Made by a program: the position numbers and the translations under genes
NCBI GenBank assembly: GCA_963835625.1
Contig: CAWIGO010000001.1
Span: forward strand, 1-32,000
Source: an uncultured Verrucomicrobiae bacterium
GTDB lineage: Bacteria > Verrucomicrobiota > Verrucomicrobiia > Limisphaerales > UBA11358
Length of the DNA: 32,000 bases
Reading direction: 5' to 3'
The notes under the pieces: generated by a model
What the model was told of the DNA's origin: nothing
The model's input: the letters and a program-made list of their open reading frames with translations, nothing else
Databases searched by the model: none
In this document: piece by piece, positions 8,665 through 26,538 of the stretch
How the letters are laid out: every line of letters begins with the position of its first letter
How positions within the stretch are numbered: the stretch's first letter is position 1

Positions 8665-8740
8665 GCTGTCGAATCGGGTTCGAATGGAATTCGCTCAAAA
8701 GAGGCAGCTTTTGTGCTGCACGACTTCCATCTCACTCCGC

Positions 8741-9925
8741 TTAGTTGGACCGAAAGGCCAAAACGACTTCTTCTTTAATCAGTCCCTTGTGGCCACACCG
8801 GTTGGGCGCAAGCATTCTGTCTTTGATAATATCAGTGAAAGAATCAAATAGTTTGAAGCCTCGCTCGACCAACATATCGCGCAGGATTTGCCATGTGCGG
8901 ATGCGCACTCCTCCGATAAGATTGTCTCCACAGACCAACACGAACGTGCCTTTGCGTTTTAGGCACTTTTTGATGATGTCAAACGCATTTCCCATATCGC
9001 GCAGGTAGTGGAGGACAATTGCCTCCGACCGAGGAGACTTTCGCGCCAGTTTTTTTATTTGAGGAATTCGCTCACGTTGGCGTCGGATTTGTTCGGCTGA
9101 AATGCCGGCGAGAAGATTGCCGCGTTCTGTGCCGATAAAACACTCTTGAAGTTCGCTGACTCGAAACGAGAGCAGCCCTTCGAGTAGATATAATTCGAGT
9201 TTGAAATTACGAAAGTAATCTTGAGCATTGATATACGGAGGCGACGTAATTACATGCGAGTGCTTTCCGATTAGACGTGGGATTGAAGTGTCACAAGTCA
9301 CATCAGCTAACAAAAAGCGACAATCATTTTTGTGGAAATCTGCCCCATAAACCTCGCCTAATTCTTTCAAAAGCATGTGAACCATCCGATACGGGTCGAA
9401 ATGTTTTCCTTTACGAGTGGAGATTGCCTTTTTTGAGATGAAAGGCTTCGGACTTCGCTGGTCGGCTTTAGAGCAAAGTCGAATTGATAAAGCAAAAGCG
9501 AGGAGCACGGCCTTCCCATCAATTGTATTGTGCAACTTAAGATTTTGACCGGCTGCTCGAAGGCGTTCATATTTTTCCAGCGTTGCCGAAGTGAACCAAT
9601 AATGTTTTGCTGGCCATTGAATGGGAAATGTCCGTTTTGTATTCCGGGCTGTTTGCACAAATTCATTTGCAAGTGCTGTTGCTTTCTCAACAGAAAATCC
9701 TGTGAGTTTAATTTCAGAGAGCAAGCCGGCCATCGGATTCAAATCGATCCCAGTCACTGAAAGACCGTTCCGACGACCGGCAACGAGCACCGCACCCGAC
9801 CCACAAAATGGATCTAAAATGCTCTTGGCATTAACTGCATAACGGCTCACAAGTTTGTCAGCAAGCCGTGACACCATCTTGGCTGGATACCTGTCGAGAC
9901 GCGTTGGTAAACGCATTTTCATCAT
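8741..9925 (-). CDS. SAM-dependent N6-adenine/N4-cytosine-type DNA methyltransferase (394 aa)
   Basis: Motif I 'ILDPFCGSGAVL' lies upstream of motif IV 'ITSPPYINAQDY'. I set the start at the ATG at 9925, which forms an ATGA overlap with the stop of the upstream gene (9922-9925). The longer ORF starting at 10024 would overlap that gene by 103 nt. Confidence 0.8.
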   Translation of the reverse strand: MMKMRLPTRLDRYPAKMVSRLADKLVSRYAVNAKSILDPFCGSGAVLVAGRRNGLSVTGIDLNPMAGLLSEIKLTGFSVEKATALANEFVQTARNTKRTFPIQWPAKHYWFTSATLEKYERLRAAGQNLKLHNTIDGKAVLLAFALSIRLCSKADQRSPKPFISKKAISTRKGKHFDPYRMVHMLLKELGEVYGADFHKNDCRFLLADVTCDTSIPRLIGKHSHVITSPPYINAQDYFRNFKLELYLLEGLLSFRVSELQECFIGTERGNLLAGISAEQIRRQRERIPQIKKLARKSPRSEAIVLHYLRDMGNAFDIIKKCLKRKGTFVLVCGDNLIGGVRIRTWQILRDMLVERGFKLFDSFTDIIKDRMLAPNRCGHKGLIKEEVVLAFRSN

Positions 9926-10866
9926 ACCTTCTTCAAAACCCAAGTTATACCGATGCCGTGTGAAAAGAATTCGTGATTGTGCCGGAGTGGGCTTGCATAA
10001 ACGATAGCTGGTGGGTCGTTGCATTCTCGAACGTAGGAATAAATTCCTAAAGTTTGCGGCTTTGTGCCAAGAGGACTGACAACTTTAGCGTGCAAGCTAC
10101 GTTTGTCTCTTTCTCCCAGAATCTGATCGAGTGCTTTACAAGTAGCCTCCGGATCAGTCGAATCAACTTTCGATATAGCTTCGTTGCCTACGAGACCTAT
10201 AAGATCAGCATTGAAGCGCTCTGTTCTGCCTGCCCACGAAGGCTGGTATGGCGGATATGGAATAACCAGCGTTGTCTGCATTGGCTGAACATGCTCATAA
10301 GTCGCGAGAACCCTGTCTCCCTCGTAACCAAGGAACAACACCAAATGCACCGGTCTGCTCAAGTCTGGACAGGCGGAAAACCCGGGGATTTGTTGAAATG
10401 ACGCGATCCCGAAGGATAGCGGAATAAATTGTGATACGTCATAATCCTCCGGGGCGGTGTAAACAACGCAAAGCTTGTCCCAATAACCCTCATCGTCCAG
10501 CCAGCGAAGCATCATGAGCAAGTGACGTTTTGTGAATACGGAAATGTCCAAGACAATTGCGTCACTCTTTCGCGATGCTAGAATCTCCTTAAGCTGATTC
10601 ATATTGTCACGGAGACTCATAACAGCATTGGATTCCGTAAATCGAAGCGTAGTTGCCGATACAGCGGCTGCACTTAGCACATCCAGCATTGCTTTATGAC
10701 GAATTTCACGCTTGGGATTAACATCGTCATAATGGAAAATCACAGCGCCGCTTGGCCTCCAGCCTGCCATTCTGGACACAAAACCTTCACATCGCGCTTC
10801 ATGACTTGAACAAGTCAGCAGCAATGCGCGTGCTGGCATCAAGCTTGGTGAAAACTGGGCTTTCAT
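9922..10866 (-). CDS. Hypothetical 314-aa protein with an alternating beta/alpha (Rossmann-like) pattern, possibly tandem CARF/SAVED-like
   Basis: Its ATG lies 13 nt after the TIR-ATPase stop, and an ATGA overlap joins it to the downstream methyltransferase. Two similar halves each run hydrophobic strand, small residues ... 'VLDISVFTKRH' / 'VVSPLGTKPQTLG'. The second resembles the CARF 'TGGTKPMS' signature. The fold assignment is speculative. Confidence 0.65.
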   Translation of the reverse strand: MKAQFSPSLMPARALLLTCSSHEARCEGFVSRMAGWRPSGAVIFHYDDVNPKREIRHKAMLDVLSAAAVSATTLRFTESNAVMSLRDNMNQLKEILASRKSDAIVLDISVFTKRHLLMMLRWLDDEGYWDKLCVVYTAPEDYDVSQFIPLSFGIASFQQIPGFSACPDLSRPVHLVLFLGYEGDRVLATYEHVQPMQTTLVIPYPPYQPSWAGRTERFNADLIGLVGNEAISKVDSTDPEATCKALDQILGERDKRSLHAKVVSPLGTKPQTLGIYSYVRECNDPPAIVYASPLRHNHEFFSHGIGITWVLKKV

Positions 10867-10879
10867 CTTGGTATGGTTC

Positions 10880-13135
10880 TTACAGCAAACCAGGCTGCTT
10901 ATCGTCCGAATGGGCTTTTGCCATCGTCGTCATGAGCTGCTTCTTTGCTTGCGCGCGCTGACCGGGTGAGAGAAGTTTCGCCAAATCATTACATTTAACT
11001 TTTGTGCGCCAGCGTTGGCGGGGGCTGATTTGTAGCACTGGTGCATAAACTCGCGAGATATTGAATTCAACTGGTTGTGGATCAGAACTATGCTTTGGCT
11101 TGAAACCAGGCCTTCCCTCTTTCGTTTGGAAAACTCCCTCCTTAGCACCGACCGTGAGAATGCGGCGAAGGTCGTCATAATTGGCTGAATCCAAATGTTC
11201 CGGATCGGCAATCGTCAATCGCGCTGCCTCCGGTTCACTCGTATGGTTCAAAAGTCTAAATCTAAGGCAATCACCTAAATCGAGCAGGAAGTATTTTAAG
11301 GTCTCTCCGTCAGCTTCAATATTCTTGCTCAGGGTGGTTAGATTGTGTTGGGACACAAAGTGGACTGCATCGGACTGTTTCTTTGGAGGCAAAACGAACT
11401 CATTCGTTGGCTGTTGCCCCGAACCATAAGTTAAGTGGTAAGCTACGCCGAGGAATTCTTGGAAATAGCGAATTACGCCAGAGCTTAAGAAAGCCAACTC
11501 ATTAAAACCGGAAAAATGTTTGGCTTTGTGCCGCCCTTTATTTCCATAAAGAACTCTGTAGATTGCGGTCTCACCATAATATGTCATTTTTTCCCGCTGC
11601 TTTTCGACTGGCCAGTTTTGAAACTGTTTGACACTCACTTTGCATAGCTTCGCAACAGAAGCAAGAAAAGCCTCCGCACCAACTTCCTCTGAAGTATCTG
11701 CCGGCAGAAGTTGTTGCATATTGCTAAATGGCAACTCTTCGTTCTTCAGAATGTTAGTAACAATATGGGTCAGAAGCTGGTTGTACGCACTTTGCTGTTC
11801 CTTGTCTTCGAGATCGTAAATCAGTGGAACGCGGGTATAATCGTGGATTTCTTGTAACTCTTGGCCTGTCATTGTGCCAGAGGTATCCGCAGTCCCAATC
11901 TTCTTCGCGATTTTTATGGATGCATCTGGGGAAGCTAACTTAACGTAACTGTTTACAATCCGTTGCTGATAAGGAAACAAATTTTCATACTCATCCAGCA
12001 ACGCCATGAATGTCGCGTTGGCGAACATCGGAATCAACTTCTTGACGAGCTTGATCGTTCGTTTCAACGCTTCCAGGTCAAAGGTTGCGATGGGAACGGA
12101 TACGTTTTCCTCATATATGAATTTTCGCCGTATAAATCCTGCGATCTTGAGGTGTATATTGGCCAACTTGCTGAGCAACTCGTCTAAATTTCTCGGCGCG
12201 TTTTGATCCGTGTCAAAGAGCGCCAAATAAGCGGCCTCTGCCAAAGCCTTCTCAGCATGTCCATCACAAGACAAGAGTTGCTGTTTGATGCAAAAATCGA
12301 TCTCTGAAAATAAACTTTCGAGGAGACAAATGATGATTTCTTGCGAACCAATATCAGTGATTTGAATAAAATCACGCTCGTTAGCGATTCTTGGATCACC
12401 GCAGGAGTTTGGAAGTCCTGCATTGCAAATTGCACCTCGACTGAGCTTTAGATAGAAACCAAATATTTTCTGGCCGCTGCCACTTGCTTTGTGCCGCGCA
12501 AGAAAATTGCGCGCTCGCAGAGACAGCAAGAGCATAGATTTTCCTGTTCCGCGCGAACCCTCTAGGAAGCACGGTTTCATTTCTTCAAGTGCGCCTGTCT
12601 TTTGCGCATCAGGCGGTGAGAATGTCTTAGCCAGCAGGTCGGGCCGGTCCTCAAAATATTCCGCGCGGACACGACGGAATGGATTGCTCGATTCTAATTT
12701 GAATGCTTCCAAAACCACCGAGGAGGCCGTTTTCCCTGATAAAATTGCGCCGCACAAATCTTCCAGTAGTTTTTTGTAGGAATTGGGGTCGGATACATTC
12801 AGTTTTCCAAACACTTTGTGGCCAAGCACTGGTGGAAGCGGCGAATCATCAAGTTTCACAACCATACAGACGCCACCCGACTGTTCGACTTCATTCCAGA
12901 CAGCCGAATAAATTTCGAGTTTCTGCCATTTGGCCTGCGGAGTGTTTTTGGAATAAAGAATGACAACAGTATGAGCGCCTGCGATACCGTCGTTCATGAA
13001 GCCAATTGCGTCCACACCCAACTTCAGTTCATTTGTATCGACTTTTGTTTCGTGGCTGGCATTGCGTAGGTCGCCTTCAAGTCGTTTTGCAATCTCGACA
13101 TCCGCACCAGCGTGTGAAATAAAAATATGTTTCAT
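10880..13135 (-). CDS. TIR domain fused to a P-loop ATPase (751 aa)
   Basis: The N-terminus 'MKHIFISHAGADVEIAKRLEGDL ... VVILYSKNTPQAKWQKLE' fits the bacterial TIR pattern, with the candidate catalytic Glu in WxxxE. Walker A is 'EGSRGTGKSMLL' and Walker B is 'FMALLDEYENL'. The start lies 7 nt downstream of the DUF499 gene stop. Confidence 0.8.
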   Translation of the reverse strand: MKHIFISHAGADVEIAKRLEGDLRNASHETKVDTNELKLGVDAIGFMNDGIAGAHTVVILYSKNTPQAKWQKLEIYSAVWNEVEQSGGVCMVVKLDDSPLPPVLGHKVFGKLNVSDPNSYKKLLEDLCGAILSGKTASSVVLEAFKLESSNPFRRVRAEYFEDRPDLLAKTFSPPDAQKTGALEEMKPCFLEGSRGTGKSMLLLSLRARNFLARHKASGSGQKIFGFYLKLSRGAICNAGLPNSCGDPRIANERDFIQITDIGSQEIIICLLESLFSEIDFCIKQQLLSCDGHAEKALAEAAYLALFDTDQNAPRNLDELLSKLANIHLKIAGFIRRKFIYEENVSVPIATFDLEALKRTIKLVKKLIPMFANATFMALLDEYENLFPYQQRIVNSYVKLASPDASIKIAKKIGTADTSGTMTGQELQEIHDYTRVPLIYDLEDKEQQSAYNQLLTHIVTNILKNEELPFSNMQQLLPADTSEEVGAEAFLASVAKLCKVSVKQFQNWPVEKQREKMTYYGETAIYRVLYGNKGRHKAKHFSGFNELAFLSSGVIRYFQEFLGVAYHLTYGSGQQPTNEFVLPPKKQSDAVHFVSQHNLTTLSKNIEADGETLKYFLLDLGDCLRFRLLNHTSEPEAARLTIADPEHLDSANYDDLRRILTVGAKEGVFQTKEGRPGFKPKHSSDPQPVEFNISRVYAPVLQISPRQRWRTKVKCNDLAKLLSPGQRAQAKKQLMTTMAKAHSDDKQPGLL

Positions 13136-13144
13136 GGCTGCCTT

Positions 13145-15928
13145 TTAGGAGCGTTGCCCGAGGTTGACATCATCATTCAAACCGAGTTCGCGCAACGCGG
13201 ATTTCGTTTCGTCGAGTTTCTGTTTGGAGACGCCGCCTTCGGGTAACACTTCAACTTTCACGGTTAATTTCAAGCCGCGCGCGGTTGCGAACTTGGAAAG
13301 AACTTTCGTGTAAAAGTTCATCCATTTCTGCGGCGGAATCTCGCCTGTCCACGTTAGGCCGGACGCGGTTGAAGACGCTGGGGATGTCGGGGGAATCAAG
13401 TCAACCGGCACGGCAGTGCCAGCGGCGGCTGGTATTGGCGCTGACGGAACTGGTGCGGTGGCAGATGCAGGCGACGAAGCCCGCGTTTTTAGATAAGTCT
13501 CTGCGGTTTCCTTGGTGACGATGAACATTTCCTCGGAGAATTCCACATCGGCGGTCATCAACGCCTGGTTGAAGGAAAACGGTTTGTAACCGTTAGCCGT
13601 TTTACCGACGTAACCGAGCAAACCATTACCAACTCCGCGCGAAATCGTGTCCCTCAACACGTCCGGGTTCGTCAAGCGCGGAAATTGTGGCGACGCGAAA
13701 AACGCATCACGCACGGATTTCGTTGACCATTCCTTGAATGCGGGCGGCCAGTTGCGAATTAGAAATGACGGACTGATGCCTTTTGTTTCCAAGTCGCCAT
13801 CGGAACTCAATCGGCCAACGATTAACGAAATTAAGTCTGTTGCCGCGCTGGAATGAACCAAGCCGAGATCAACGCGTTTCACGGTGTTGTCTTTGCCAAG
13901 CAACATCAAATTTTTGTAGGTGCGCCAGATGGTTTCCTTCAAGTCGCGCCGGGCTTTTTTGAGGTTTTCCGAAAGTTGATGAACCTGGGTTTCATCCAGT
14001 TTCAAATCATCGTCTTCAATGGCTTCCCATGCGAGCACCTTGCGAGCGTCTTCGCGCAATGTGTCCGGTGATTCCGGCACGCAAAAGATGACGGCGCTCT
14101 TGAAAGTGCGAGATGATGTGCCGTATTCGCGAATCATGTTTTCAATAAACGGCACTGTGGCTTTCTCGTCCTGCAACGACCGGTCGGGTGACAGCACGAC
14201 CAGCGTGACCGTTGGACGATCAGTAATCTGAATTGTCTTCTCCGCGAAATAAACACGCTCCAATCCGCTGCCTGCAGAAAAGACGTTTTGGATTTCCTCG
14301 CAAATGTGTTCTTCAACTTGCGCGGGCGGGATGGTCGCGCGCCGGTCGGCGAACCGCTTGTTGAGATTTTCTTTAAGGCTGAAATGATAGCGATTGCGTT
14401 CGACTGCAAGGTAGTAACATCCTTCGGTGAGCGCTTCCAACACCGTCTCGACGTTGCCGATGTCGAGTCCTGGTTCGGCCACGGCAAAACGAATTTCGGG
14501 CACGGTTGCGTCGGTCTTCGCCTGACCACCGTTCGACTCAAAGAAAATGGCCGTTATCGCTTTGCGATGCAGGCGAGCATCTTTGATTGTCTCCTGCGCC
14601 TCCGCGTCAAGCCGCGTTGCATGTGAATCGCGTTTGCCGCAAATATCGGTCGTCACCGCTCCTTCCAGTTTCGTTTCGCCCAACTGCTCAAAAGTTGCGG
14701 AGCGGAACATGGCGTCGTCAAGGGGAGCCGTGCCCAGCCCAATCATCGCATCCTTGTGCGCGCCCTTGAATCCTTCCTGATAGGCACGCGACACCCAAAG
14801 CGCGAGCAAACGCAAAATGCCACGGGTCTGCTGAAAACGTGGCAGCGCCTGCCACTTGCGCTCGAACACGGAAATGACTGCCGGATGAAACGGATATGTT
14901 GCGGTAAATGCCTCGCGCGCCCTGTCCGCGTTAAACTGGCTTGGCAATTGTTGCCGATGTTCGACAACCCAATCGGCGTATTCCGCACACGTTTCCAATG
15001 CTTCCTTGGGTAACATCACTTTGCCTTCGCTGGTCACGGCGCGCTCGTCCCACTCGAACAACCGGCGACGGATGATTTCGGAAATCTCCGTGTCGGATGA
15101 CATGACGATGGCCTTGCCAAGCCGGTCGAGCACTTTCTTGAATCGCTCGAAATCGGACTGGTCTTCCGCAGTCATTTCCAATTCCGACGCCGGAATGGAA
15201 ACGGCCAGCACGATGTTGTCTGTGCTGCGCGCCACTTCCGAAAGATTTTGCAGAAAATTGTAAAGCTGCGCGCCCAAACCGCCCCGGCGATTGCGGCTGA
15301 CGTAATTCATCAACTCGTCCATCAAGATGAGGCTCGGTTTGTCCTTCGGAAGAAATTGGCGGATGACTTCGCCGCCGGGCGCCTCTCCCTTTTTGTCGTG
15401 CTCGGCCACGATTGCGAAGGCTCGCTCCCCGCCAAGTTGAAACGCAATCTCACCCCAGGGCGTTTTGCGAAGCGGCGTGCCGTCTTTTCCGCCGCGCCCA
15501 CTGATGGAGTCGAACTCGGTGCCGACGAACACGGCAGCACTGGCCTTTGGCACACTCGCTACGCCCGCCTTGGAAAGTAATGTTGCCACGCCCGCCCACT
15601 TGTTTGCGGCAGGGCCGTGCTTTGCCAGATGGAAAAGCAGCGTGAGCGCGTGTGTCTTGCCGCCGCCAAATTGCGTCGAGAGATTGAAGATGGCGTTGGT
15701 TTCAGTTTTCTCGCCGGACAGACGGCGGATGACTTCGGAAGCGAGACTGGCGAGATTCTTGGTGAGATACGTGCGCTCGAAAAAACGTTCCGGCTTTTGA
15801 TAATCGGCAGGCGCTTTGCCTTCGCGAACCTGATCCAAATGCACGGCGAATTCAGACGCATCAAGCGGCTTGCCGTCGCGCAAGTCCTCGCGCGGAGTGA
15901 CAACTTTATACCAAGGTTTGAGAGGCAT
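13145..15928 (-). CDS. DUF499-family ATPase (927 aa; BrxC-related P-loop protein)
   Basis: The N-terminal signature is 'KPWYKVVTPREDLRDGKPLDASEFAVHLDQV ... FFERTYLTKNL ... STQFGGGKTHAL'. The ATG lies 3 nt after the DUF1156 methyltransferase stop (TAAGTTATG). Confidence 0.8.
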   Translation of the reverse strand: MPLKPWYKVVTPREDLRDGKPLDASEFAVHLDQVREGKAPADYQKPERFFERTYLTKNLASLASEVIRRLSGEKTETNAIFNLSTQFGGGKTHALTLLFHLAKHGPAANKWAGVATLLSKAGVASVPKASAAVFVGTEFDSISGRGGKDGTPLRKTPWGEIAFQLGGERAFAIVAEHDKKGEAPGGEVIRQFLPKDKPSLILMDELMNYVSRNRRGGLGAQLYNFLQNLSEVARSTDNIVLAVSIPASELEMTAEDQSDFERFKKVLDRLGKAIVMSSDTEISEIIRRRLFEWDERAVTSEGKVMLPKEALETCAEYADWVVEHRQQLPSQFNADRAREAFTATYPFHPAVISVFERKWQALPRFQQTRGILRLLALWVSRAYQEGFKGAHKDAMIGLGTAPLDDAMFRSATFEQLGETKLEGAVTTDICGKRDSHATRLDAEAQETIKDARLHRKAITAIFFESNGGQAKTDATVPEIRFAVAEPGLDIGNVETVLEALTEGCYYLAVERNRYHFSLKENLNKRFADRRATIPPAQVEEHICEEIQNVFSAGSGLERVYFAEKTIQITDRPTVTLVVLSPDRSLQDEKATVPFIENMIREYGTSSRTFKSAVIFCVPESPDTLREDARKVLAWEAIEDDDLKLDETQVHQLSENLKKARRDLKETIWRTYKNLMLLGKDNTVKRVDLGLVHSSAATDLISLIVGRLSSDGDLETKGISPSFLIRNWPPAFKEWSTKSVRDAFFASPQFPRLTNPDVLRDTISRGVGNGLLGYVGKTANGYKPFSFNQALMTADVEFSEEMFIVTKETAETYLKTRASSPASATAPVPSAPIPAAAGTAVPVDLIPPTSPASSTASGLTWTGEIPPQKWMNFYTKVLSKFATARGLKLTVKVEVLPEGGVSKQKLDETKSALRELGLNDDVNLGQRS

Positions 15929-15931
15929 AAC

Positions 15932-18900: not shown

Positions 18901-18985
18901 GGATGGATTTCTCGCGCCGCGCGTGCGCAGAGATGCGCTTGATGGGCAGGTCAACTTCGATGAGGCGTTTGGGGTAAGCAGGCAT
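15932..18985 (-). CDS. DUF1156-family DNA methyltransferase (1017 aa) with an internal Zn-ribbon
   Basis: The N-terminal DUF1156 signature is '[43 protein letters not shown]'. Motif I is '[15 protein letters not shown]', a Cys pair 'CPCCGY' is present, and motif IV is '[23 protein letters not shown]'. The ATG abuts the GGCT stop (TAAATG). Confidence 0.85.
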   Translation of the reverse strand: [1017 protein letters not shown]

Positions 18986-19438
18986 TTACGCGATTTCAAT
19001 TTTTTCAAGTTCGGCGATGTAATCAGCCGGAAGTTTCCAAGCCTTCGCTCCATTGACCAGCATTGCTTTGTATTCAGCACTTGGCTTGGGGTTTGGGTCT
19101 TCTTTTTTTACAACGACGAATGTCAACGCCTTAATGCACTTGGCCTCGTCGCCTTCAGGACACACCTCCACCGAAATTGGTTTGTAGGCACGCACGGCGA
19201 CGCCCTCGGCCTTGTCCAACGCAGCGCGATCCTCCTCCTTGATTTGATAAACGACGCCCCAAACCGCGCCGTGCGATTCCGGGATGATGTCCGCCGCGCC
19301 GCATCGGTTGTTTGTCGAAAAGCGGGTGAAGGCGAGCCGGAAGCCTAGAAGCCGGGCGATGGACATGAATTGAGCGGACGGACAGCGTTTCCGCATCCGC
19401 GTTTCGTCCATGTTTGAACCGTAGGCGAAGTAGATCAT
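18986..19438 (-). CDS. Gamma-glutamylcyclotransferase / AIG2-like family protein (150 aa)
   Basis: The N-terminal 'IYFAYGSNMDETRMRKRCP' is the YGSL/YGSNM signature of GGCT/AIG2-like folds. 'GVVYQIKEED...LDKAEG' fits the family's catalytic-Glu region. Confidence 0.75.
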   Translation of the reverse strand: MIYFAYGSNMDETRMRKRCPSAQFMSIARLLGFRLAFTRFSTNNRCGAADIIPESHGAVWGVVYQIKEEDRAALDKAEGVAVRAYKPISVEVCPEGDEAKCIKALTFVVVKKEDPNPKPSAEYKAMLVNGAKAWKLPADYIAELEKIEIA

Positions 19439-19488
19439 ACGTTGTCTCGGATTACGTCGGTCTATTCTCCGGCATAGCGTTTAACCCG

Positions 19489-19531
19489 AATCGGTAGATT
19501 GGCCGAAAAAATCGGTAGATTATCGGTAGAT
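19489..19531. promoter_or_regulatory. Three direct copies of ATCGGTAGATT (iteron/operator-like) in the only intergenic gap of the eight-gene array
   Basis: There are exact 11-mers at 19489-19499, 19510-19520 and 19521-19531, giving start-to-start spacings of 21 and 11 bp. The last copy overlaps the stop codon of the DUF4062-wHTH gene. The block lies upstream of the GGCT gene on the minus strand. Confidence 0.5.
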
Positions 19532-21066
19532 TATTCACGGCTTTGTTTAAGGACATAACGGGCGTTTCTGCCACGGCCTTGTGACTTGATAAGGCCGATT
19601 TGCACCAAGGCAATCAAGTCGCGGCGAATAGTGTCATAAACCACATCCAGATTTTTGCGGCACCAGCCGCTGGTCACGAATCCCGTCTTCTGCACCTCAA
19701 CCATGATTTTCTTCTGGCGCTCGTTGAGTTGGGATTCAATGGCCGGTGTAATGAGGCCGGTTGCTCCCGCCGGAACCTTAAGCCGGTCGTAGTTGCCATC
19801 GGAACCGGGGAAGGTGACGACGAAATAGCCGTCCTGCTCGGCGTAGGTCGGAGATTCGAGGCCGTGATTGAGCATGGCGTCGCGCATTCGCGCAAAGCCG
19901 CTGCCGCGCTGTTCCATGAGCTTGAACGTGGCGAGGGTCTGGGCAATGACCGGGTTGCGCGAACAGGGCCGGTAATTGCCACGCCGCAATTTGGCGAGAG
20001 TCAACGGCGCGGGCGGGTAGCCGGGACTGGAGATCACGACCCGGTCTGTGAACACTTCAATCATGATTTTCCGGCTGGCATCCTCGTAATTACGATGTGC
20101 GACCGCATTGACGAGGGCTTCGCGCAGTGCGCGGGGCGGATATTCGTCGAGTGTGACGTTGTTGATGCCGACGACACGGGTCGGGTGAAAAGTGTGTTTA
20201 TCCACGAATTGCAGCGCCTGCTCGATAGCCACGACCAACGGCGCGTTGATGGTCAACTGGCCGCGAGGCTTGCCGGAAACTTTGGTGCCGGCGTAGGCGT
20301 CGGCGAGAATCGAGGCTTGGGGAAAATGGGCGGCTGGCGATTGGCCGAACAAAAGCAGTCCGGCCGCAGTCGCGTAGAACTCGCCTTTGGCCGTGTCACG
20401 CCAGAGCAGTCCGCGCGTGTGCATTGACGGGCAAACCGAATCCACCGAAACGCTCAATCCCGAACTTTCCACCACAAGGGAACCAAAACTGGAAACCTGA
20501 CTTGATTCCAACGAAGACCACGGAACACTTGGCAGCGGTTTTGATTCAAACGTGGAGGAGGCTTCGATTTGTTCGCGTCCGCCCGCAGATTCGTCCGCTG
20601 AAGGCTCGAATTCAAATTCGGTTTTGAGCAGGTTCAAAAGACCTCGCCGGAGTTCCGGCTTCAGGTCTTCGCGATCAATGAAGCGTTTGTAAGTGTGCTT
20701 ATGCTGCTTGATTTCATTGATGAACGCCCGCGTCGCATCCTTGCGTGCATCGTCGGCACCTTTGAGAAACACGAGGGTCGGCAGCTTGAGTTTTTGAGCG
20801 AGACGATATTCGTGATGCGTTGCTGAAACGTCCCCGTCAAGCTGGCCGTAATCGTTGAAGATGAGCAAAATGTATATCTGACAACTGCGGAGACATTCCA
20901 AGTAAGGTTTGTCGGCGGGTCGGGCGGGTGCCGGTTCCTTTTCCCACAAGACAGGGTCGCAATGCTGCATCAGAAATGGATCAGTGGTGATGAGCGACGC
21001 GATGGCGACACGCTCCGCCTCCAATTCCTTCTGCACGGAACTAACAAAGACACGCAATTTGCTCAT
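19531..21066 (-). CDS. DUF4062 N-terminal domain fused to a HATPase_c_4 ('RecG C-terminal'-like) domain and a C-terminal winged-helix (511 aa)
   Basis: 'MSKLRVFVSSVQKELEAER' is a DUF4062-type start. 'PRALREALVNAVAHRNYED' is the hallmark of the HATPase_c_4 / divergent AAA-Schlafen-like regulators. The C-terminal 'ERQKKIMVEVQKTGFVTSGWCRKNL...' is wHTH-like. An ATGA overlap joins it to the helicase stop (21063-21066). Confidence 0.7.
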   Translation of the reverse strand: MSKLRVFVSSVQKELEAERVAIASLITTDPFLMQHCDPVLWEKEPAPARPADKPYLECLRSCQIYILLIFNDYGQLDGDVSATHHEYRLAQKLKLPTLVFLKGADDARKDATRAFINEIKQHKHTYKRFIDREDLKPELRRGLLNLLKTEFEFEPSADESAGGREQIEASSTFESKPLPSVPWSSLESSQVSSFGSLVVESSGLSVSVDSVCPSMHTRGLLWRDTAKGEFYATAAGLLLFGQSPAAHFPQASILADAYAGTKVSGKPRGQLTINAPLVVAIEQALQFVDKHTFHPTRVVGINNVTLDEYPPRALREALVNAVAHRNYEDASRKIMIEVFTDRVVISSPGYPPAPLTLAKLRRGNYRPCSRNPVIAQTLATFKLMEQRGSGFARMRDAMLNHGLESPTYAEQDGYFVVTFPGSDGNYDRLKVPAGATGLITPAIESQLNERQKKIMVEVQKTGFVTSGWCRKNLDVVYDTIRRDLIALVQIGLIKSQGRGRNARYVLKQSRE

Positions 21067-24000
21067 GCCGCACCTCCAGTGCGATACGGTGTCGCATCTT
21101 CTTTCAATTCGACCGGATGTTTCACTGAATCTTGCCGCAACCGATAGTGCTCGACTTTAACAATGGGCTGCCAGTCCAACGTCGAGGGGTCGTTGAGAAT
21201 GTTCAACGACGGATTCGGCGTGCCACAATGGAAAACGACGTAGAGCCAGTAATCTTTGCGCAGGCGGCGGGCGGTGTTGTATTCGTTGGAGGTCAAGGCG
21301 ATGTCGCCGGTATGCGAGCGGCCTTTGACTTCAATGAACCGCACGTCTATGGCTGTTTTGGGGTCTTCGGGATGCAATTTGCGGGAGATGAGGTCAAAGC
21401 CGCGATTGTCTGCTTCCACGCTTTCCACGACGCGGCCCTGGGCATTCTCATGGGCGATGACGTGTTGCACGGCGATGCGTTCAATTTCCGGGTCCGTGAC
21501 CATCTCACGGATTTGCGGCGAGTTACGCTCCGGGTGCGGCAACACCCACGCCCGGCCGACGTGCTGGATTTCGCCAATCATGCACTCGGCTTCGCGGCGC
21601 AATTCCGCCGTGCGCTGCTCCAGCCGGCCATTCAGTTCGTCGAGCTTGTCCTCGACCTTCTTCATGTTGGCGGCCATCAAGGTTTCGTCACCGAACTGGC
21701 CCGACTCGTGGATTTCCGCCATGCGGAGATTTTGGCGGTGAATCAACTCGTTTAGGCTGATTTTAAGATGTTTTTCGATGGTCGCCGTCTCTTTTGACCG
21801 TTGTGCGGCGACTTCGGCCAGGAAAGGATTGAGGGCTGTGGTAACGAGGAATCGTTCGGCAGCAGTGCGGTCGGGCAACCCGTCGCCGTCGGGGACAGTC
21901 GTTTCCTTCGGCGCAAGGGCCAGATCGAGGAAGATGGTCGGCTGGCGGATGGTCATCGTGCCGCTGTGGTCGGCCTGCACAACAAAGATGCGGCGGTGAA
22001 GCTGGTTGTTTCTTCCGTCTTTGATGGACGCCGCAAACACGTCAAGCCGGTATGGATATGCCTGATGCAGATCGTAAAAAACCGAGCCGCGCAGCAAATC
22101 TTCGCGGACGTGCTCAGTCACGTCCTCGCGCACGGCCTCGAACAGCGGGTGACCGGGCGTGACCCATTCCAGCGTGGCATCCCGTTTCAGGTGCTCCTTG
22201 TCGAAGACAATGTTTTTGTATTCGCGACCTAATTTACCGAAACGAGGTTCGAGCCTTTCACCAACGGGCCAGAGCGTGCGCGGCACTTTTCCAAGTTTGT
22301 AAACGTGACCGCCTTCGCGGATTTCATTGGGATGAACGCCGACAATGGGCGCGGCTTGGATGAAAAAGTCCTCGATGACTTCCGGCACGAGGCGGCGTTC
22401 CTTGGCTTCGGCGGACTTACCGATGATAGCGGATAGATTCAGTTCGCGCTTAGCGAGTCCTTCCAACGTGGAATTGGTGATGCTCTCCAACCGCTTCGTG
22501 TCCACCTGCTCGACGATGCGCTGCTTGATGAGTTCCTCGTCCATCTGGTTGTGCGCATACATATCGCGAATCATTTTCTCCAACTGATTCGATGGGAACA
22601 CGTCGCCCAGGACATTGAATACTTTGCCGGTGCGCTTGGGGTCGAGGTCATCTTCGATGGCTTGAATGCGCTCAAACAGTTTGTGAAGCACGCGGCCTTC
22701 GCGCGTATTCGTCGAAACGAAATTGAAAATGAGACAATCCTTTTCCTGACCGTAACGGTGGATGCGGCCCATGCGCTGCTCCAGCCGCACAGGATTCCAC
22801 GGGATGTCATAATTGATCATCAACCAGCAGAATTGCAGATTGATGCCTTCGCCGGCGGCCTCGGTCGCCACGAGGACTTGGGCGGACTCGCGAAATTCGC
22901 GCTCGGCGAAAATGCGCGAGCCGGGCGTGTCGCGGTCCCCGATTTTCATACCGCCGTGAATCTGCGTTACGCTGAGTCCCCATTCGCGCAGTTTGCCGAG
23001 TGGCCGGCCGTCTTTGCCGTCGGCGCAAAGGAAGTCGAGCGTGTCCTTGTGCTCAGTGAAGATAAGCAACTTCATCTTCGGGTCGGCGAAGATGCCGTGC
23101 TGTTTGATGAGTTCGCGCAATCGGACAAGTTTTGATTCGACTTCGCGCTTTTCCAAATCCACCGCCTTTTGAATCAACTTGCCGAGTTCGGTGATTTCAT
23201 CGCGCAACGCCGCCGGGTCGTATGACGCGACCAGGTCTTCCAGTTCGGAAACGATTTCCTGCTGCTCTTCTTCCGGCAGATCTTCGTAGTCGTCGGGCAG
23301 GCGTTTATTGATTTGCGACTGACGAAACCCTTCGGGGTCGGCGAGAATGTGTTCGCGCTTGTCCTTCATGCGCTGAAGACTGCGGCGCACGGCGTAAATG
23401 CTCGATGCAAAGCGGCGTTGCAGCATCGCCATGGTGAAGGCAAGCGCACGGCCACGGGCGGAATCCTCGGACGCGGCTTTGATGGACTGGTCTTCTACGA
23501 ATCGCGTCAGGGCATCATAGAAATCGAGTTCGTCGAGATTGATCTTAAACTCGGTGGTGCGGACATGGCGTTTGGTGAACAGCGCCTTGACCATGCCGGT
23601 TTCCGGGTCGGGGAAAGAAACAAGTGCTTCTTTCACGCGGCGAAGGTAAAACGGTGCTTCCTGTTTCCGCATCGCTTCCTCCAAACTTTTCACGTCGCCA
23701 TAAACGTCACGGTCGAGTAATTCCAGAAACAGGCAGAAATTTTCCGGGTCGCCCTTGTGCGGCGTGGCGGTCATCAGCAAAAAGTGATCGGTCATCTGTG
23801 ACAGCGCCTCGCCCAATTGGTACGCGAGCGTCTTTTTGTCGCGACTGGCCGCGCTCATTTTGTGCGCCTCATCCACAATGATTAAATCCCACTGACTGCG
23901 AAGCAGGCTTTCCTTGGCGTCTTCGATGCGCGAGACCCACGAGACGGACGTGATGACCTGATTTTTATCCTGCCATGGATTCGAGCCGTAATTCGCCCGC

Positions 24001-24551
24001 AACACGTCGCTACGGATAATTTCAAAATTCTCGCGGAATTTGTCCTTCATTTCGCGCTGCCACTGAAACGAGAGATTGGCCGGCGTGATGATGAGCGTGC
24101 GTTTGACGAGGCCGCGTATCTTCAACTCTTTCAGGAGCAAACCGGCCATGATGGTTTTGCCTGCGCCGGGGTCGTCGGCCAGCAGGAAACGGATGCGCGG
24201 CAGCGCCATGAAATACTGATAAACCGCCTCAAGCTGATGCGGCAACGGGTCAACCCGCGCGATGGAGAGCGAAAAATAGGGGTCGTATTCAAATGCCAGC
24301 GCGAGCCGCATGGCTTCGATGGCGAGGCGGAATCGCAGCGGGTCGCCGTCAAAGGGTTCGGTGTCCGGCGTGGTTTCGAGTGTCGCCAACTGCTCTGGCG
24401 TGAGGACGGGTTCGTAAACGCGCGAAGTGTTCAGGCCCTTGGCGATGAGTTTCACCGCGTCGCCCATCGGAATGCAGACGATGATCTGAACCGGTTCTGG
24501 GAAAATCGGTCCGCGCAGAATTTTGTTGGGCTTCAGGTCTTCGGCTTTCAT
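21063..24551 (-). CDS. SNF2-family helicase with a C-terminal DUF3883 (restriction-endonuclease-like) domain (1162 aa)
   Basis: Motif I is 'LLADDPGAGKTIMAGLLLKEL' and motif II is 'LIIVDEAHKM'. Motif VI is 'QRMGRIHRYGQ'. The C-terminus 'DVRFIEVKGRSHTGDIALTSNEYNTARRLRKDYWLYVVF' fits DUF3883. Confidence 0.85.
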   Translation of the reverse strand: MKAEDLKPNKILRGPIFPEPVQIIVCIPMGDAVKLIAKGLNTSRVYEPVLTPEQLATLETTPDTEPFDGDPLRFRLAIEAMRLALAFEYDPYFSLSIARVDPLPHQLEAVYQYFMALPRIRFLLADDPGAGKTIMAGLLLKELKIRGLVKRTLIITPANLSFQWQREMKDKFRENFEIIRSDVLRANYGSNPWQDKNQVITSVSWVSRIEDAKESLLRSQWDLIIVDEAHKMSAASRDKKTLAYQLGEALSQMTDHFLLMTATPHKGDPENFCLFLELLDRDVYGDVKSLEEAMRKQEAPFYLRRVKEALVSFPDPETGMVKALFTKRHVRTTEFKINLDELDFYDALTRFVEDQSIKAASEDSARGRALAFTMAMLQRRFASSIYAVRRSLQRMKDKREHILADPEGFRQSQINKRLPDDYEDLPEEEQQEIVSELEDLVASYDPAALRDEITELGKLIQKAVDLEKREVESKLVRLRELIKQHGIFADPKMKLLIFTEHKDTLDFLCADGKDGRPLGKLREWGLSVTQIHGGMKIGDRDTPGSRIFAEREFRESAQVLVATEAAGEGINLQFCWLMINYDIPWNPVRLEQRMGRIHRYGQEKDCLIFNFVSTNTREGRVLHKLFERIQAIEDDLDPKRTGKVFNVLGDVFPSNQLEKMIRDMYAHNQMDEELIKQRIVEQVDTKRLESITNSTLEGLAKRELNLSAIIGKSAEAKERRLVPEVIEDFFIQAAPIVGVHPNEIREGGHVYKLGKVPRTLWPVGERLEPRFGKLGREYKNIVFDKEHLKRDATLEWVTPGHPLFEAVREDVTEHVREDLLRGSVFYDLHQAYPYRLDVFAASIKDGRNNQLHRRIFVVQADHSGTMTIRQPTIFLDLALAPKETTVPDGDGLPDRTAAERFLVTTALNPFLAEVAAQRSKETATIEKHLKISLNELIHRQNLRMAEIHESGQFGDETLMAANMKKVEDKLDELNGRLEQRTAELRREAECMIGEIQHVGRAWVLPHPERNSPQIREMVTDPEIERIAVQHVIAHENAQGRVVESVEADNRGFDLISRKLHPEDPKTAIDVRFIEVKGRSHTGDIALTSNEYNTARRLRKDYWLYVVFHCGTPNPSLNILNDPSTLDWQPIVKVEHYRLRQDSVKHPVELKEDATPYRTGGAA

Positions 24552-24623
24552 CCAGGATCTGCCTTTATGCTGTCCGTGATTCGCGCATGATGCACCCTTG
24601 GCGCGAAATCTGCACGGAGAAAT

Positions 24624-24836
24624 TTATTCGGCGAAGGCGCGATTGTCGGGCGAGCCGCCGAAGAGTTCGATTTTTCCGGTGAGGCACCTTGCCACTGTTC
24701 CGTCCGATTCCAACGGCGGCAACGCCATGCGGCGGAATCCCCGTTCGCAGTGAACCAGCACACATTCATGGGCGCGGAGATTTCGGAGTTGGTGCGGCTT
24801 GATTTTGTGTTCTTCGGTTTCGTCGTTGTAATTCAT
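24624..24836 (-). CDS. Hypothetical 70-aa ORF upstream of the helicase
   Basis: It has the same orientation as the array and ends 72 nt upstream of the helicase ATG. I have no confident motif. There is a vague resemblance to coupling-protein C-terminal tails. Confidence 0.3.
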   Translation of the reverse strand: MNYNDETEEHKIKPHQLRNLRAHECVLVHCERGFRRMALPPLESDGTVARCLTGKIELFGGSPDNRAFAE

Positions 24837-24857
24837 GCTGCTGTTTTCCAGCGGCGC

Positions 24858-24962
24858 TCAATTGTTCTTTCGCGCTCGTTCCAACTCATCTTGCAGCGCC
24901 CGTTCCTTGGCGAGTATGGAAAAAATCTCGGCGTCAGCGTCGGAGAATTGATTCTTCGCCAT
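24858..24962 (-). CDS. Possible 34-aa ORF (MAKNQFSDADAEIFSILAKERALQDELERARKNN) at the head of the array
   Basis: I translated it by hand from the minus strand. Its stop lies 21 nt before the ATG of the 70-aa ORF. The peptide is charged and helical. It falls below the ORF-track threshold. Confidence 0.2.
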   Translation of the reverse strand: MAKNQFSDADAEIFSILAKERALQDELERARKNN

Positions 24963-25020
24963 TCCGAGATACCGATAAAACAAAGTGAAGCGGCTACGTT
25001 GGTTCAAATAAGTTTTGCAA

Positions 25021-26433: not shown

Positions 26434-26538
26434 ATTGTGCCTTTCGTATAATTCTAGTGGCAACAATAGTGGCAACGTCCGCTGATGTCAAGCGTGTTTC
26501 AATATGTCGGATTGTTAGGAAATAGTTAAATTTGTAGT

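What the first reader, a model, noticed from the sequence alone, without database searches (positions are those of the whole stretch)
8741..24962. Eight co-directional defence-type genes with almost no intergenic space: a composite 'super-operon'
The junctions on the minus strand are as follows. Helicase to DUF4062 protein is an ATGA overlap (21063-21066). GGCT to DUF1156 methyltransferase is TAAATG (18983-18988). Methyltransferase to DUF499 has a 3-nt spacer. DUF499 to TIR-ATPase has a 7-nt spacer. TIR-ATPase to the unknown has 13 nt. The unknown to methyltransferase 2 is an ATGA overlap. The only real gap is 92 nt (19439-19530) and it carries the three iterons. The array holds two methyltransferases, three or four NTPases and two TIR/TIR-like (DUF4062) domains. 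It goes beyond the helicase-methylase-ATPase core and may act as one integrated system rather than stacked independent ones.
Basis: partly seen in the sequence, partly recalled or inferred. Interest (0 to 1): 0.8.

Follow-up and report, generated by a model that had tools for sequence, protein, structure and literature searches.

The report
Stacked defence modules in one operon
Eight tightly packed same-strand genes are real, but they are four separate anti-phage modules that occur apart in other genomes (an Hma system with two guest cassettes inside it, and a three-gene TIR system behind it), so this is a composite defence island, not one eight-gene machine.

Summary

1. hmaA, hmaB and hmaC form a canonical Hma system (DUF499-centred, BREX-related type 1).
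2. The DUF4062/HATPase_c_4/wHTH gene sits between hmaA and hmaB in about a dozen or more of 80 related loci. Elsewhere it sits in Type I R-M systems or beside conjugation genes.
3. The GGCT gene fills a variable slot. Close relatives carry an OLD-type ATPase, an Abi_C protein or a PD-(D/E)XK nuclease there.
4. TIR-ORC/Cdc6-like ATPase, tandem-CARF-like protein and methyltransferase form an autonomous cassette. It is found in 40 loci across many phyla, none with a co-directional, adjacent Hma. Its GC3 is 0.45-0.48, against 0.61-0.70 for the Hma block.

Gene embedding in Hma is already published (63-67% of Hma loci).

Two by-products deserve follow-up. The wHTH of the DUF4062 protein co-varies with the triple 11-bp repeat after its own stop codon. 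The triad belongs to a modular family of methyltransferase, ORC-like ATPase, CARF-like protein and a swappable effector that I could not find named anywhere.

The parts
21063..24551 (-). hmaA: SNF2 helicase with a C-terminal NOV_C (PD-(D/E)XK) nuclease. Restriction-type effector of the Hma / BREX-related type 1 system.
   Evidence: PADLOC HmaA E=6e-190 over residues 1-1107. Pfam SNF2-rel_dom, Helicase_C and NOV_C.
19531..21066 (-). Guest cassette 1, embedded in Hma: DUF4062 (TIR-like NADase domain) + HATPase_c_4 region + C-terminal winged HTH. Predicted single-gene abortive-infection module.
   Evidence: Pfam DUF4062 3.6e-16, HATPase_c_4 4.4e-24, HTH_DeoR 3.3e-4. PDB 3lmm match over residues 282-419. 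The gene occurs both between hmaA and hmaB and in non-Hma contexts. DUF4062 was shown to be an NADase in 2026 preprints.
19490..19532 (-). Triple 11-bp repeat (AATCTACCGAT at offsets 0, +11 and +32) starting in the stop codon of the DUF4062 gene. Predicted binding site of that protein's own wHTH.
   Evidence: The same architecture, with a different repeat sequence, occurs in 56 of 72 homologous loci scored. Repeat sequence co-varies with the recognition helix (Mantel r=0.53, 0 of 500 permutations). These are the only exact copies in the window.
18986..19438 (-). Guest cassette 2: small AIG2/GGACT-fold (gamma-glutamyl cyclotransferase-like) protein in a variable slot upstream of hmaB. Role unknown.
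   Evidence: Pfam AIG2_2 1.4e-20. Homology to L068 and L079 breaks at 19487 and resumes at 18987/18971. Those loci carry OLD-type ATPase-TOPRIM or Abi_C genes in the slot. Homologues occur on plasmids and in phages.
15932..18985 (-). hmaB: DUF1156 N6-adenine DNA methyltransferase (DPPY motif). Self-marking component of Hma.
   Evidence: PADLOC HmaB 1.8e-122. Pfam DUF1156 2.2e-22. NCBIfam DUF1156_antiphage 2.5e-60, below its cut-off.
13145..15928 (-). hmaC: DUF499 AAA+ (ORC/Cdc6-clade) ATPase of Hma.
   Evidence: PADLOC HmaC 1.4e-128 over residues 1-830. Pfam DUF499.
10880..13135 (-). Triad gene 1: N-terminal TIR domain with the catalytic W-x-x-x-E motif (E74), fused to an ORC-CDC6-like AAA+ ATPase (Walker A GTGKS, Walker B DEYEN).
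   Evidence: Pfam ORC-CDC6-like 1.3e-56 and TIR_2 7e-14. Alignment to bacterial TIR 7uxr places E74 on the conserved Glu. Invariant residues in A1.
9922..10866 (-). Triad gene 2: stand-alone protein of two CARF-like Rossmann domains and no effector domain. Predicted ligand sensor or regulator.
   Evidence: PADLOC CARF6 model 6.7e-27. AlphaFold2 model from an alignment, pLDDT 85.2 and pTM 0.88. Foldseek hits: Can1 6sce (prob 1.0, TMq 0.53), Cam1, Csx1-Crn2 and ring nucleases. No Pfam family.
8741..9925 (-). Triad gene 3: DNA methyltransferase of the N6_N4 family (FxGxG, then SPPY). Possibly N4-cytosine.
   Evidence: Pfam N6_N4_Mtase 9.7e-11. PADLOC MTase_II 1.2e-26. Conserved next to the other two genes in 40 loci.
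8704..8719 (-). Terminator-like hairpin plus T-run just after the last gene. Likely end of the transcription unit.
   Evidence: Consensus scan. None is found at the internal junctions.
24627..24836 (-). Remnant (C-terminal 44 residues) of a type IV secretion coupling protein upstream of hmaA. Marks a degraded integrative/conjugative element.
   Evidence: tblastn: 59% identity to residues 447-490 of the intact coupling protein of L069, E=1e-13. Intact copies precede the DUF4062 gene in L069, L070, L073 and L133.
25279..26475 (-). Tyrosine integrase bordering the island, next to a tRNA-like 3' fragment at about 26540-26582 (+).
   Evidence: Pfam Phage_integrase 1.7e-18. The T-arm/acceptor/CCA-like sequence was read by eye. 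ARAGORN finds no complete tRNA.

Best explanation
The array is a composite defence island on a degraded integrative element. It holds four self-sufficient modules, packed so tightly that they are probably transcribed together.

(1) Host system, Hma (DUF499-centred BREX-related type 1). HmaB methylates self DNA. The HmaC ATPase scans or recognises DNA. The HmaA helicase-nuclease attacks unmodified invaders. This mechanism is inferred from published work.

(2) Guest gene in the known hmaA-hmaB insertion hotspot. It pairs a DUF4062 domain, of a family shown to be NADases, with a sensor/DNA-binding tail whose winged helix binds the three 11-bp repeats after its own stop codon. Binding is inferred from covariation. 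It would act as a single-gene abortive-infection module of the Swarozyc/Evangelion/NIR kind.

(3) Variable slot right after those repeats. Here it holds a GGCT-fold gene of unknown role.

(4) Autonomous cassette fused 9 nt behind hmaC. A methyltransferase marks self. An ORC/Cdc6-like ATPase detects unmarked or foreign DNA and switches on its fused TIR NADase. A tandem-CARF-like protein senses or regulates a nucleotide signal. All steps in (4) are inferred.

What the modules share is a transcript and a location, not a mechanism. Layering gives redundancy against phages that evade one layer.
For: Identity of the Hma core: PADLOC E-values of 1e-122 to 6e-190 for all three proteins, same strand, order A-B-C.

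Embedding is a published property of Hma. 62.7% of 1,485 Hma systems carry embedded genes, and embedded genes in Hma, BREX, DISARM and Type I R-M share the host orientation in 96.7% of cases. A second study found insertions in 66.5% of Hma loci and described a hotspot between hmaA and hmaBC.

The triad is independent.
- 40 loci from Verrucomicrobiota, Acidobacteriota, Planctomycetota, Nitrospirota, Latescibacterota, Spirochaetia, Betaproteobacteria and Methanoregula keep TIR-ORC, CARF-like and MTase in the same order.
- 39 of the 40 have no Hma-like gene within 10 kb.
- L007 is 78% identical in DNA across exactly 8743-13146 and has unrelated flanks, with fumarase upstream.
- GC3 drops from 0.63 in hmaC to 0.48 in TIR-ORC at the junction.
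- Distant relatives keep the ORC-like and CARF-like pair but swap the effector (PRTase-CE in 12 loci, HD-CE in 7, an unknown 215-aa N-terminus in 4) and the methyltransferase chemistry (C5 in 8, N6 in 8).

The DUF4062 gene is independent.
- Of 80 related loci, about a dozen or more have hmaA directly upstream and/or hmaB downstream.
- The others sit among HsdM/S/R, Eco57I-type methylases, helicases or T4SS coupling proteins.
- DUF4062 and HmaA identities are discordant: L072 86% vs 46%, L115 46% vs 70%.
- Its repeats persist where the next gene is convergent.

The GGCT slot is variable.

Co-transcription is plausible. Six of seven junctions are 13 nt or less, none carries a terminator-like site, and one such site follows the last gene.
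Against: No expression or phenotype data exist, so co-transcription and activity are inferred.

The triad has only 9 nt upstream in this locus. It therefore depends on read-through from hmaC or on a promoter inside hmaC, which is a real regulatory coupling.

The DUF4062 gene recurs in the same position inside Hma systems that are only 31-46% identical. This could reflect a functional partnership with R-M-like hosts rather than mere hitch-hiking.

The catalytic residue of the DUF4062 domain could not be mapped with confidence. The alignment to KpSwz has E=0.1 and puts Gly103 opposite the probable catalytic Glu.

Synergy between layers cannot be excluded by comparative genomics.
Confidence: 0.78

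Rival explanations
1. One integrated eight-gene system. All eight products cooperate in a single pathway with two methyltransferases, several NTPases and two TIR-type effectors.
For: Near-zero intergenic spacing and two ATGA overlaps. No internal terminator-like sites. All genes have defence-type domains.
Against: The modules assort independently. 39 of 40 triad loci lack Hma. No Hma locus recovered has the triad or GGCT. Close relatives replace GGCT with unrelated defence genes. Composition breaks sharply at the hmaC/TIR-ORC junction. Hma is defined and experimentally active as a three-gene or smaller unit.
Confidence: 0.04
2. Partial integration. The DUF4062-wHTH protein is a controller of its R-M-like host. 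By binding the triple repeat upstream of GGCT-hmaB-hmaC and the triad, it gates expression of the five downstream genes, much as C proteins or BrxR-type regulators do.
For: The wHTH and the repeat co-vary. The repeat sits in the only real gap, directly upstream of the methyltransferase side of Hma. The gene recurs between hmaA and hmaB and inside Type I R-M operons. In most loci the junction of repeats 1 and 2 forms a -10-like GATAAT (read).
Against: The repeats are equally conserved where the downstream gene is on the opposite strand: L069, L070, L076, L108, L137 and others. So they belong to the gene itself rather than to a downstream operon. No sigma-70-like promoter was scored on this strand. 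The N-terminal DUF4062 domain is an effector-type NADase in characterised relatives, not a typical regulator domain.
Confidence: 0.15
3. Decaying cargo. The array is a graveyard of inactive defence genes on a degraded mobile element, and the tight spacing is only a relic.
For: The element is degraded: a coupling-protein remnant and a tRNA-like fragment without a complete tRNA. In several other genomes the TIR-ORC gene is interrupted by insertions: L001, L005, L007, L028, L032.
Against: All eight ORFs here are intact and full length relative to their homologues. Catalytic and nucleotide-binding motifs are kept: TIR E74, Walker A/B, DPPY, SPPY. Near-identical copies occur in three independent metagenome contigs.
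Confidence: 0.05

Closest known systems
Hma system (HmaA/B/C; also called DUF499-centred BREX-related type 1) with embedded defence cassettes
   Same: All three core proteins match strongly, in the canonical order and orientation. Extra genes nested between hmaA and hmaB in the same orientation are the published 'embedding' pattern.
   Different: The guests here (DUF4062-HATPase_c_4-wHTH and a GGCT-fold gene) match no PADLOC v2 candidate model as a system. A further three-gene system is fused 9 nt behind hmaC, outside the embedding positions described.
DUF4062/NIR NADase single-gene defences (Swarozyc, Evangelion, Vulcan; 2026 preprints)
   Same: An N-terminal DUF4062 domain followed by a variable auxiliary region. 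KpSwz also ends in an HTH/winged fold. Both are found on mobile elements.
   Different: The auxiliary region here is about 420 aa (a 3lmm-like HATPase_c_4 module plus wHTH). It appears to bind DNA repeats at its own locus rather than, or in addition to, a phage protein. Sequence similarity to KpSwz is marginal (E=0.1). NADase competence is untested.
BREX and Hma as methylation-based systems built on an ORC/Cdc6-clade ATPase
   Same: The triad also pairs a DNA methyltransferase with an ORC/Cdc6-like AAA+ ATPase and has no classical restriction endonuclease.
   Different: It has no PglZ, helicase or nuclease. The output is a nucleotide-directed effector (TIR, or PRTase-CE / HD-CE in relatives). 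There is an obligatory tandem-CARF-like partner.
CARF sensors of type III CRISPR (Can1, Cam1, Csx1, ring nucleases) and TIR signalling systems (Thoeris)
   Same: Predicted fold of two CARF-like domains, as in Can1. The TIR domain keeps the catalytic Glu. A TIR-made nucleotide sensed by a Rossmann-type sensor is the logic of Thoeris.
   Different: There is no Cas10, cyclase or ThsA. The CARF-like protein carries no effector domain. Relatives lacking TIR still keep the CARF-like protein, so it cannot be only a TIR-signal receptor.

Membership tests
Hma / DUF499-centred BREX-related type 1 | SNF2 helicase with C-terminal NOV_C/PD-(D/E)XK nuclease (HmaA) | tested here: met
   PADLOC HmaA 6e-190. 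Pfam SNF2-rel_dom, Helicase_C and NOV_C 9.3e-20.
Hma / DUF499-centred BREX-related type 1 | DUF1156 N6-methyltransferase (HmaB) and DUF499 AAA+ ATPase (HmaC) on the same strand, with at most three genes between hma genes | tested here: met
   PADLOC HmaB 1.8e-122 and HmaC 1.4e-128. Two genes lie between hmaA and hmaB and none between hmaB and hmaC.
Hma / DUF499-centred BREX-related type 1 | Anti-phage activity and self-methylation | not testable with these tools
   Needs phage assays and methylome sequencing.
Defence cassette embedded in a host defence system (guilt-by-embedding) | Nested between host genes in the same orientation, and also found outside that host | tested here: met
   The DUF4062 gene occurs both in and out of Hma. 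GGCT homologues occur on plasmids and in phages. Relatives carry other defence genes in the same slot.
DUF4062/NIR NADase defences (Swarozyc / Evangelion) | N-terminal DUF4062 domain plus a variable auxiliary region in one protein | tested here: met
   Pfam DUF4062 3.6e-16 at residues 5-90. About 420 aa of auxiliary region follows.
DUF4062/NIR NADase defences (Swarozyc / Evangelion) | Catalytic glutamate (KpSwz E97, Vulcan E98) conserved | tested here: inconclusive
   The weak alignment (E=0.1) puts Gly103 opposite the probable catalytic Glu of KpSwz. An invariant H84-x-E86-Y87 lies nearby.
Methyltransferase + ORC-CDC6-like ATPase (PF24389) + tandem-CARF-like + effector (no published name found) | PF24389 ATPase directly followed by the CARF-like gene, with a DNA methyltransferase and one effector (fused or separate) in the same operon | tested here: met
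   Window. The pattern recurs in 40 close and about 20 distant loci.
Thoeris | TIR protein (ThsB) plus a ThsA-type SLOG/Macro sensor-effector | tested here: not met
   No ThsA-like protein. PADLOC gives no Thoeris hit for any of the eight proteins.
Type III CRISPR CARF ancillary proteins | CARF fold | tested here: met
   Foldseek probability 1.0 to Can1, Cam1 and Csx1-Crn2. PADLOC CARF6 6.7e-27.
Type III CRISPR CARF ancillary proteins | Linked Cas10/cOA synthase and a fused effector domain | tested here: not met
   No cas-type domain in any window ORF examined. The protein is 314 aa and consists of CARF-like domains only.
BREX | PglZ phosphatase and a PglX-type methyltransferase with BrxC | tested here: not met
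   No PglZ. Only weak BrxC/PglX similarity for HmaC and HmaB.

The most novel reading that the evidence does not exclude
Two readings remain open.

(a) The triad belongs to an uncharacterised, widespread class of epigenetic abortive-infection systems. A methyltransferase marks self. An ORC/Cdc6-like ATPase reads the mark. A tandem-CARF-like protein gates a swappable nucleotide-destroying effector (TIR, PRTase or HD). This would link R-M-style self-marking to NAD+/nucleotide depletion.

(b) The embedded DUF4062 NADase is held at, or controlled through, three co-evolving DNA sites at its own 3' end. That would be a sensor tethered to its own locus, which has not been described for this family.

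Either could also make the fused operon behave as a regulated unit in this organism.
Probability: 0.35. Interest if true: 0.7.

Novelty: new member of a known kind. Interest (0 to 1): 0.38.

Why it matters
As a claimed eight-gene super-system it does not hold up. It is one more case of the documented habit of Hma, and of defence islands generally, of collecting other defence cassettes.

Its value is as a map of module boundaries.
- It gives exact limits for an autonomous TIR-ORC/CARF-like/methyltransferase cassette (8743-13146). PADLOC v2 and NCBIfam do not call this cassette as a system.
- It marks a GGCT-fold gene as a guilt-by-embedding candidate.
- It exposes a protein-DNA recognition code between a winged helix and a triple repeat. 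That code could be tested directly and might explain how a DUF4062 NADase is controlled.

Tried and rejected
- Exact-sequence look-ups of the window's DUF4062 protein and of the 273-aa form of the CARF-like protein found no contig. The three contigs found for the 314-aa form are the same locus at 97.7-99.5% identity and add no new context.
- Single-sequence AlphaFold of the CARF-like protein was useless (pLDDT 39.6). It was repeated with a 50-sequence alignment.
- A sequence profile of the CARF-like protein against the PDB gave nothing.
- Literature searches for CARF6, PRTase-CE/HD-CE, and TIR + ORC/Cdc6 + CARF + methylase found no description of the triad. Two papers likely to hold the origin of those names are not in the library. 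I therefore cannot say the family was never described computationally. The consecutive Pfam names PF24389-PF24391 suggest it was.
- Rfam and ARAGORN found no RNA gene.
- I considered the repeats as an operator for the downstream Hma genes and down-weighted this, because the repeats persist before convergent genes.
- I considered the 220-bp direct repeats as att sites of one element and could not make that fit, because the integrase lies outside them and thyA lies inside them.
- Mapping the DUF4062 catalytic residue through KpSwz was inconclusive.
Full report
**Observation.** The window carries eight consecutive minus-strand ORFs between 8741 and 24551.
- Junctions read from the sequence are -4, 92, 0, 3, 9, 13 and -4 nt.
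- The last gene most likely starts at the ATG at 9925, behind GAAGAAGG. The longest ORF starts at 10024.
- The 92-nt gap holds three exact AATCTACCGAT copies at 19490-19532, the only exact copies in the window.
- A consensus scan finds no terminator-like site at any junction and one directly after the last gene at 8719-8704. It finds no sigma-70-like promoter on this strand.
- The packing is real and operon-like. It is also normal for operons.

**What the genes are.** Pfam and PADLOC give the following.
- 21063-24551: HmaA, an SNF2 helicase with a NOV_C nuclease (PADLOC 6e-190).
- 19531-21066: DUF4062 + HATPase_c_4 + DeoR-like HTH.
- 18986-19438: an AIG2/GGACT-fold protein.
- 15932-18985: HmaB, a DUF1156 methyltransferase with a DPPY motif (1.8e-122).
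- 13145-15928: HmaC, DUF499 (1.4e-128).
- 10880-13135: TIR_2 + ORC-CDC6-like (PF24389, 1.3e-56).
- 9922-10866: no Pfam family, but PADLOC's CARF6 models match (6.7e-27).
- 8741-9925: an N6_N4 methyltransferase with SPPY.
- NCBIfam names none of the triad proteins, the DUF4062 protein or GGCT.

**The core is an ordinary Hma system with guests.**
- Hma was defined as helicase, methylase and ATPase.
- Payne et al. report that 931 of 1,485 Hma systems (62.7%) carry embedded genes. Across Hma, BREX, DISARM and Type I R-M, embedded genes share the host orientation in 96.7% of cases. They argue that embedded genes are mostly other defence systems (bioRxiv 10.1101/2024.01.29.577857).
- Liu et al. found insertions in 66.5% of Hma loci and a hotspot between hmaA and hmaBC. 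They showed HmaA alone defends through its nuclease domain (PMC11232893).
- A 2026 survey reclassifies Hma as the DUF499-centred BREX-related type 1 system (PMC12839542).
- Two genes between hmaA and hmaB therefore fit the known pattern.

**The triad is autonomous.** I aligned homologues of the TIR-ORC protein, scanned one genome per species and searched all 67 loci with all eight window proteins.
- Forty loci keep TIR-ORC, the CARF-like gene and the methyltransferase in the same order and with tight spacing.
- They come from Verrucomicrobiota, Acidobacteriota, Planctomycetota, Nitrospirota, Latescibacterota, Spirochaetia, Betaproteobacteria and Methanoregula.
- Thirty-nine have no Hma-like gene within 10 kb. 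The exception, L018, has distant HmaA/HmaB-like genes (26-27% identity) on the opposite strand.
- Neighbours differ from locus to locus: BrxL (L013), a PglX-type methylase overlapping the start (L035), HsdR (L019), other methylases, and also fumarase, FtsK, a subtilase and an FAD oxidase.
- At DNA level, L007 (78% identity) matches the window over exactly 8743-13146, from the stop of the methyltransferase to 11 nt before the TIR-ORC start. Its flanks are unrelated.
- GC3 is 0.45-0.48 in the three triad genes. It is 0.61-0.70 in hmaC through hmaA and 0.67-0.69 in the integrase and the two right-flank genes measured.
- None of the 80 loci retrieved through the DUF4062 gene has the triad. That includes every locus with hmaC and the close relative L079, which is 82% identical in DNA across hmaC-hmaB and 99% across the DUF4062 3' half.

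**What the triad looks like.**
- An AlphaFold2 model of the 314-aa protein, built from a 50-sequence alignment, is confident (pLDDT 85.2, pTM 0.88).
- Foldseek places it with CARF proteins: Can1, which has two CARF domains in one chain (probability 1.0, TMq 0.53), then Cam1, Csx1-Crn2 and ring nucleases.
- A profile search of 1.84 billion representatives finds 601 relatives at E<=1e-10. Nearly all full-length ones are stand-alone proteins of 310-340 aa.
- The TIR domain keeps the W-x-x-x-E catalytic motif (E74, invariant in the family). The ATPase keeps Walker A and B.
- More distant loci keep the ORC-like and CARF-like pair. They replace the fused TIR by a separate PRTase-CE (12 loci) or HD-CE (7 loci) gene, or by an unknown 215-aa N-terminal domain.
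- Those loci pair the core with a C5 (8 loci) or N6 (8 loci) methyltransferase.
- A constant core, interchangeable nucleotide-directed effectors and methyltransferases of any chemistry fit a self-marking abortive-infection system best. The ATPase would read modification state and the effector would deplete NAD+ or nucleotides. This mechanism is inference.
- The CARF-like protein persists where no TIR is present, so it is not simply a receptor for a TIR product.
- I found no paper describing the system. The consecutive Pfam names PF24389-PF24391 suggest it has been noticed computationally.

**The DUF4062 gene is a frequent guest, not an Hma component.** Homologues are abundant. I scanned metagenome contigs with their alignment and searched the 80 loci with all window proteins.
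- hmaA lies directly upstream, often with the same 4-nt overlap, and/or hmaB lies downstream in L068, L072, L077, L086, L109, L115, L117, L130, L131, L142 and L144. Fragments occur in several short contigs.
- Most loci with enough flank have no Hma.
- Pfam scans of 87 co-directional neighbours in non-Hma loci show N6_Mtase/HsdM_N, Methylase_S, HSDR_N, Eco57I, ResIII/SNF2 and T4SS coupling proteins.
- Identities are discordant with the host: L072 has 86% for this protein and 46% for HmaA, while L115 has 46% and 70%.
- Three 2026 preprints show DUF4062 (NIR) domains are TIR-like NADases. They act as effectors of single-gene defences with variable sensor tails: Swarozyc, Evangelion and Vulcan.
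- The window protein fits that pattern with a long tail related to PDB 3lmm plus a winged helix.
- Whether its catalytic residue is intact could not be settled.

**The iterons.** Right after the stop codon of this gene, nearly every homologous locus has the same layout: two tandem 11-bp copies, a spacer of about 10 nt, and a third copy. The repeat sequence differs between loci.
- The sequence tracks the recognition-helix region of the C-terminal winged helix. Examples: TACCGA with VVYDTIRRDL, (A/G)TCCGA with VV(R/K)DTAHRDL, GTCAGA with ITRDTAxRDF, TATCAC with VAYQTVYRDL, and CATCGA with VVYNTAYRDL.
- Over 56 loci the repeat-helix correlation is Mantel r=0.53, with 0 of 500 permutations reaching it. 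Spearman is 0.51, against 0.18 for the rest of the protein.
- blastn shows the same thing. Homologues of 51-57% identity that share the window's repeat align through the gene's 3' end to 19487. The 86%-identical L072 has another repeat and loses homology at 19655.
- The protein therefore almost certainly binds its own 3' flank.
- The repeats persist where the next gene is convergent: L069, L070, L076, L108, L137. I read them as part of this cassette rather than as an operator for Hma. A local regulatory effect on GGCT-hmaB is not excluded.

**The GGCT slot.** Homology between the window and its closest relatives stops just after the third repeat (19487) and resumes at the hmaB start (18987 or 18971).
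- In that slot L068 has an ABC/OLD-type ATPase-TOPRIM gene, L079 an Abi_C protein, and L077 a PD-(D/E)XK_3 nuclease plus an unknown.
- GGCT is absent from all 80 loci.
- Its homologues lie on rhizobial plasmids (next to an orphan methyltransferase in pMJ700743b), in Bacillus phages, and upstream of a C5-MTase/HD-CE/ORC/CARF-like cluster in Mesorhizobium (L052).
- It is a guilt-by-embedding candidate with no assignable role.

**Setting.** The array lies on a degraded integrative element.
- A 70-codon ORF at 24627-24836 is the C-terminal remnant of a T4SS coupling protein.
- A tyrosine integrase lies at 25279-26475.
- A tRNA-like 3' fragment lies near 26540-26582. No complete tRNA is found.
- A 1,830-aa STAND NTPase lies to the left.
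- A 220-bp direct repeat brackets 6872-25021.

**Verdict.** The tight, co-directional, probably co-transcribed array is confirmed. The proposal that it is one integrated system is contradicted by independent assortment of its parts, by composition, and by the published behaviour of Hma. The best description is a layered operon of four autonomous modules. The unit is ordinary in kind. The interesting leads are the un-named methyltransferase/ORC-like/CARF-like/effector family and the winged-helix/repeat recognition code.

Noticed in passing
window 19490-19532 (-); L068-L146, just after the DUF4062 gene stop: A triple 11-bp repeat (offsets 0, +11, +32) follows the stop codon in nearly all homologous loci. 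Its sequence co-varies with the recognition helix of the protein's C-terminal winged helix (Mantel r=0.53, 0 of 500 permutations).
   Followed up: yes
L074, L075, L077, L081, L088, L108, L141, L142, L144, 30-60 nt after the first repeat set: A second triple-repeat set with a different sequence follows the first. It may be a fossil of an earlier C-terminus/repeat swap, or a site for another protein.
   Followed up: no
window 6652-6871 and 25022-25239: A direct repeat of about 220 bp (80-92% identity) lies 18.4 kb apart. It brackets thyA, the triad, Hma and the coupling-protein remnant. The integrase lies just outside the right copy. Its role (recombination scar, duplicated leader) is unresolved.
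   Followed up: partly
window about 26540-26582 (+): A T-arm/acceptor/CCA-like sequence (GGGGGTTCGAATCCCCCTCTCTCCGCCA) lies next to the integrase start. ARAGORN and Rfam find no complete tRNA or tmRNA in the window. It is likely an att-site fragment.
   Followed up: partly
window 24627-24836 (-): A 70-codon ORF is the C-terminal remnant of a type IV secretion coupling protein (59% identity to the intact gene of L069). Intact copies directly precede the DUF4062 gene in L069, L070, L073 and L133.
   Followed up: yes
window 1477-6969 (-): A 1,830-aa ORF with a novel-STAND NTPase domain (nSTAND1) is probably another defence gene of the island. Its annotated start overlaps the left 220-bp repeat, so the true start may be further downstream.
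   Followed up: no
window 17000-17800 (inside hmaB): The central part of hmaB has 47.6% GC, against 58-62% in the rest of the gene. HmaB is only 59-68% identical in relatives whose HmaA, HmaC and DUF4062 proteins are 90-99% identical. This suggests exchange of the target-recognition region.
   Followed up: partly
L001, L005, L007, L028, L032 (insertions); L031 (deletion): In several genomes the TIR-ORC gene or the triad is interrupted by 0.9-2.7-kb insertions carrying an opposite-strand ORF. In L031 a deletion joins the TIR end to the methyltransferase. Recurrent inactivation hints at a fitness cost.
   Followed up: no
L052 7205-12767: In Mesorhizobium erdmanii a GGCT homologue (40% identity) lies directly upstream of, and co-directional with, a C5-methyltransferase/HD-CE/ORC-like/CARF-like cluster. 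This is a second link between GGCT and this kind of system.
   Followed up: partly
L013 and L035, upstream of the triad: The triad sits immediately behind BREX genes: BrxL in Planctomicrobium sp. SH661, and a PglX-type methylase overlapping the TIR-ORC start in a Spirochaetia MAG. Landing behind an R-M-like system is therefore recurrent with different hosts.
   Followed up: partly
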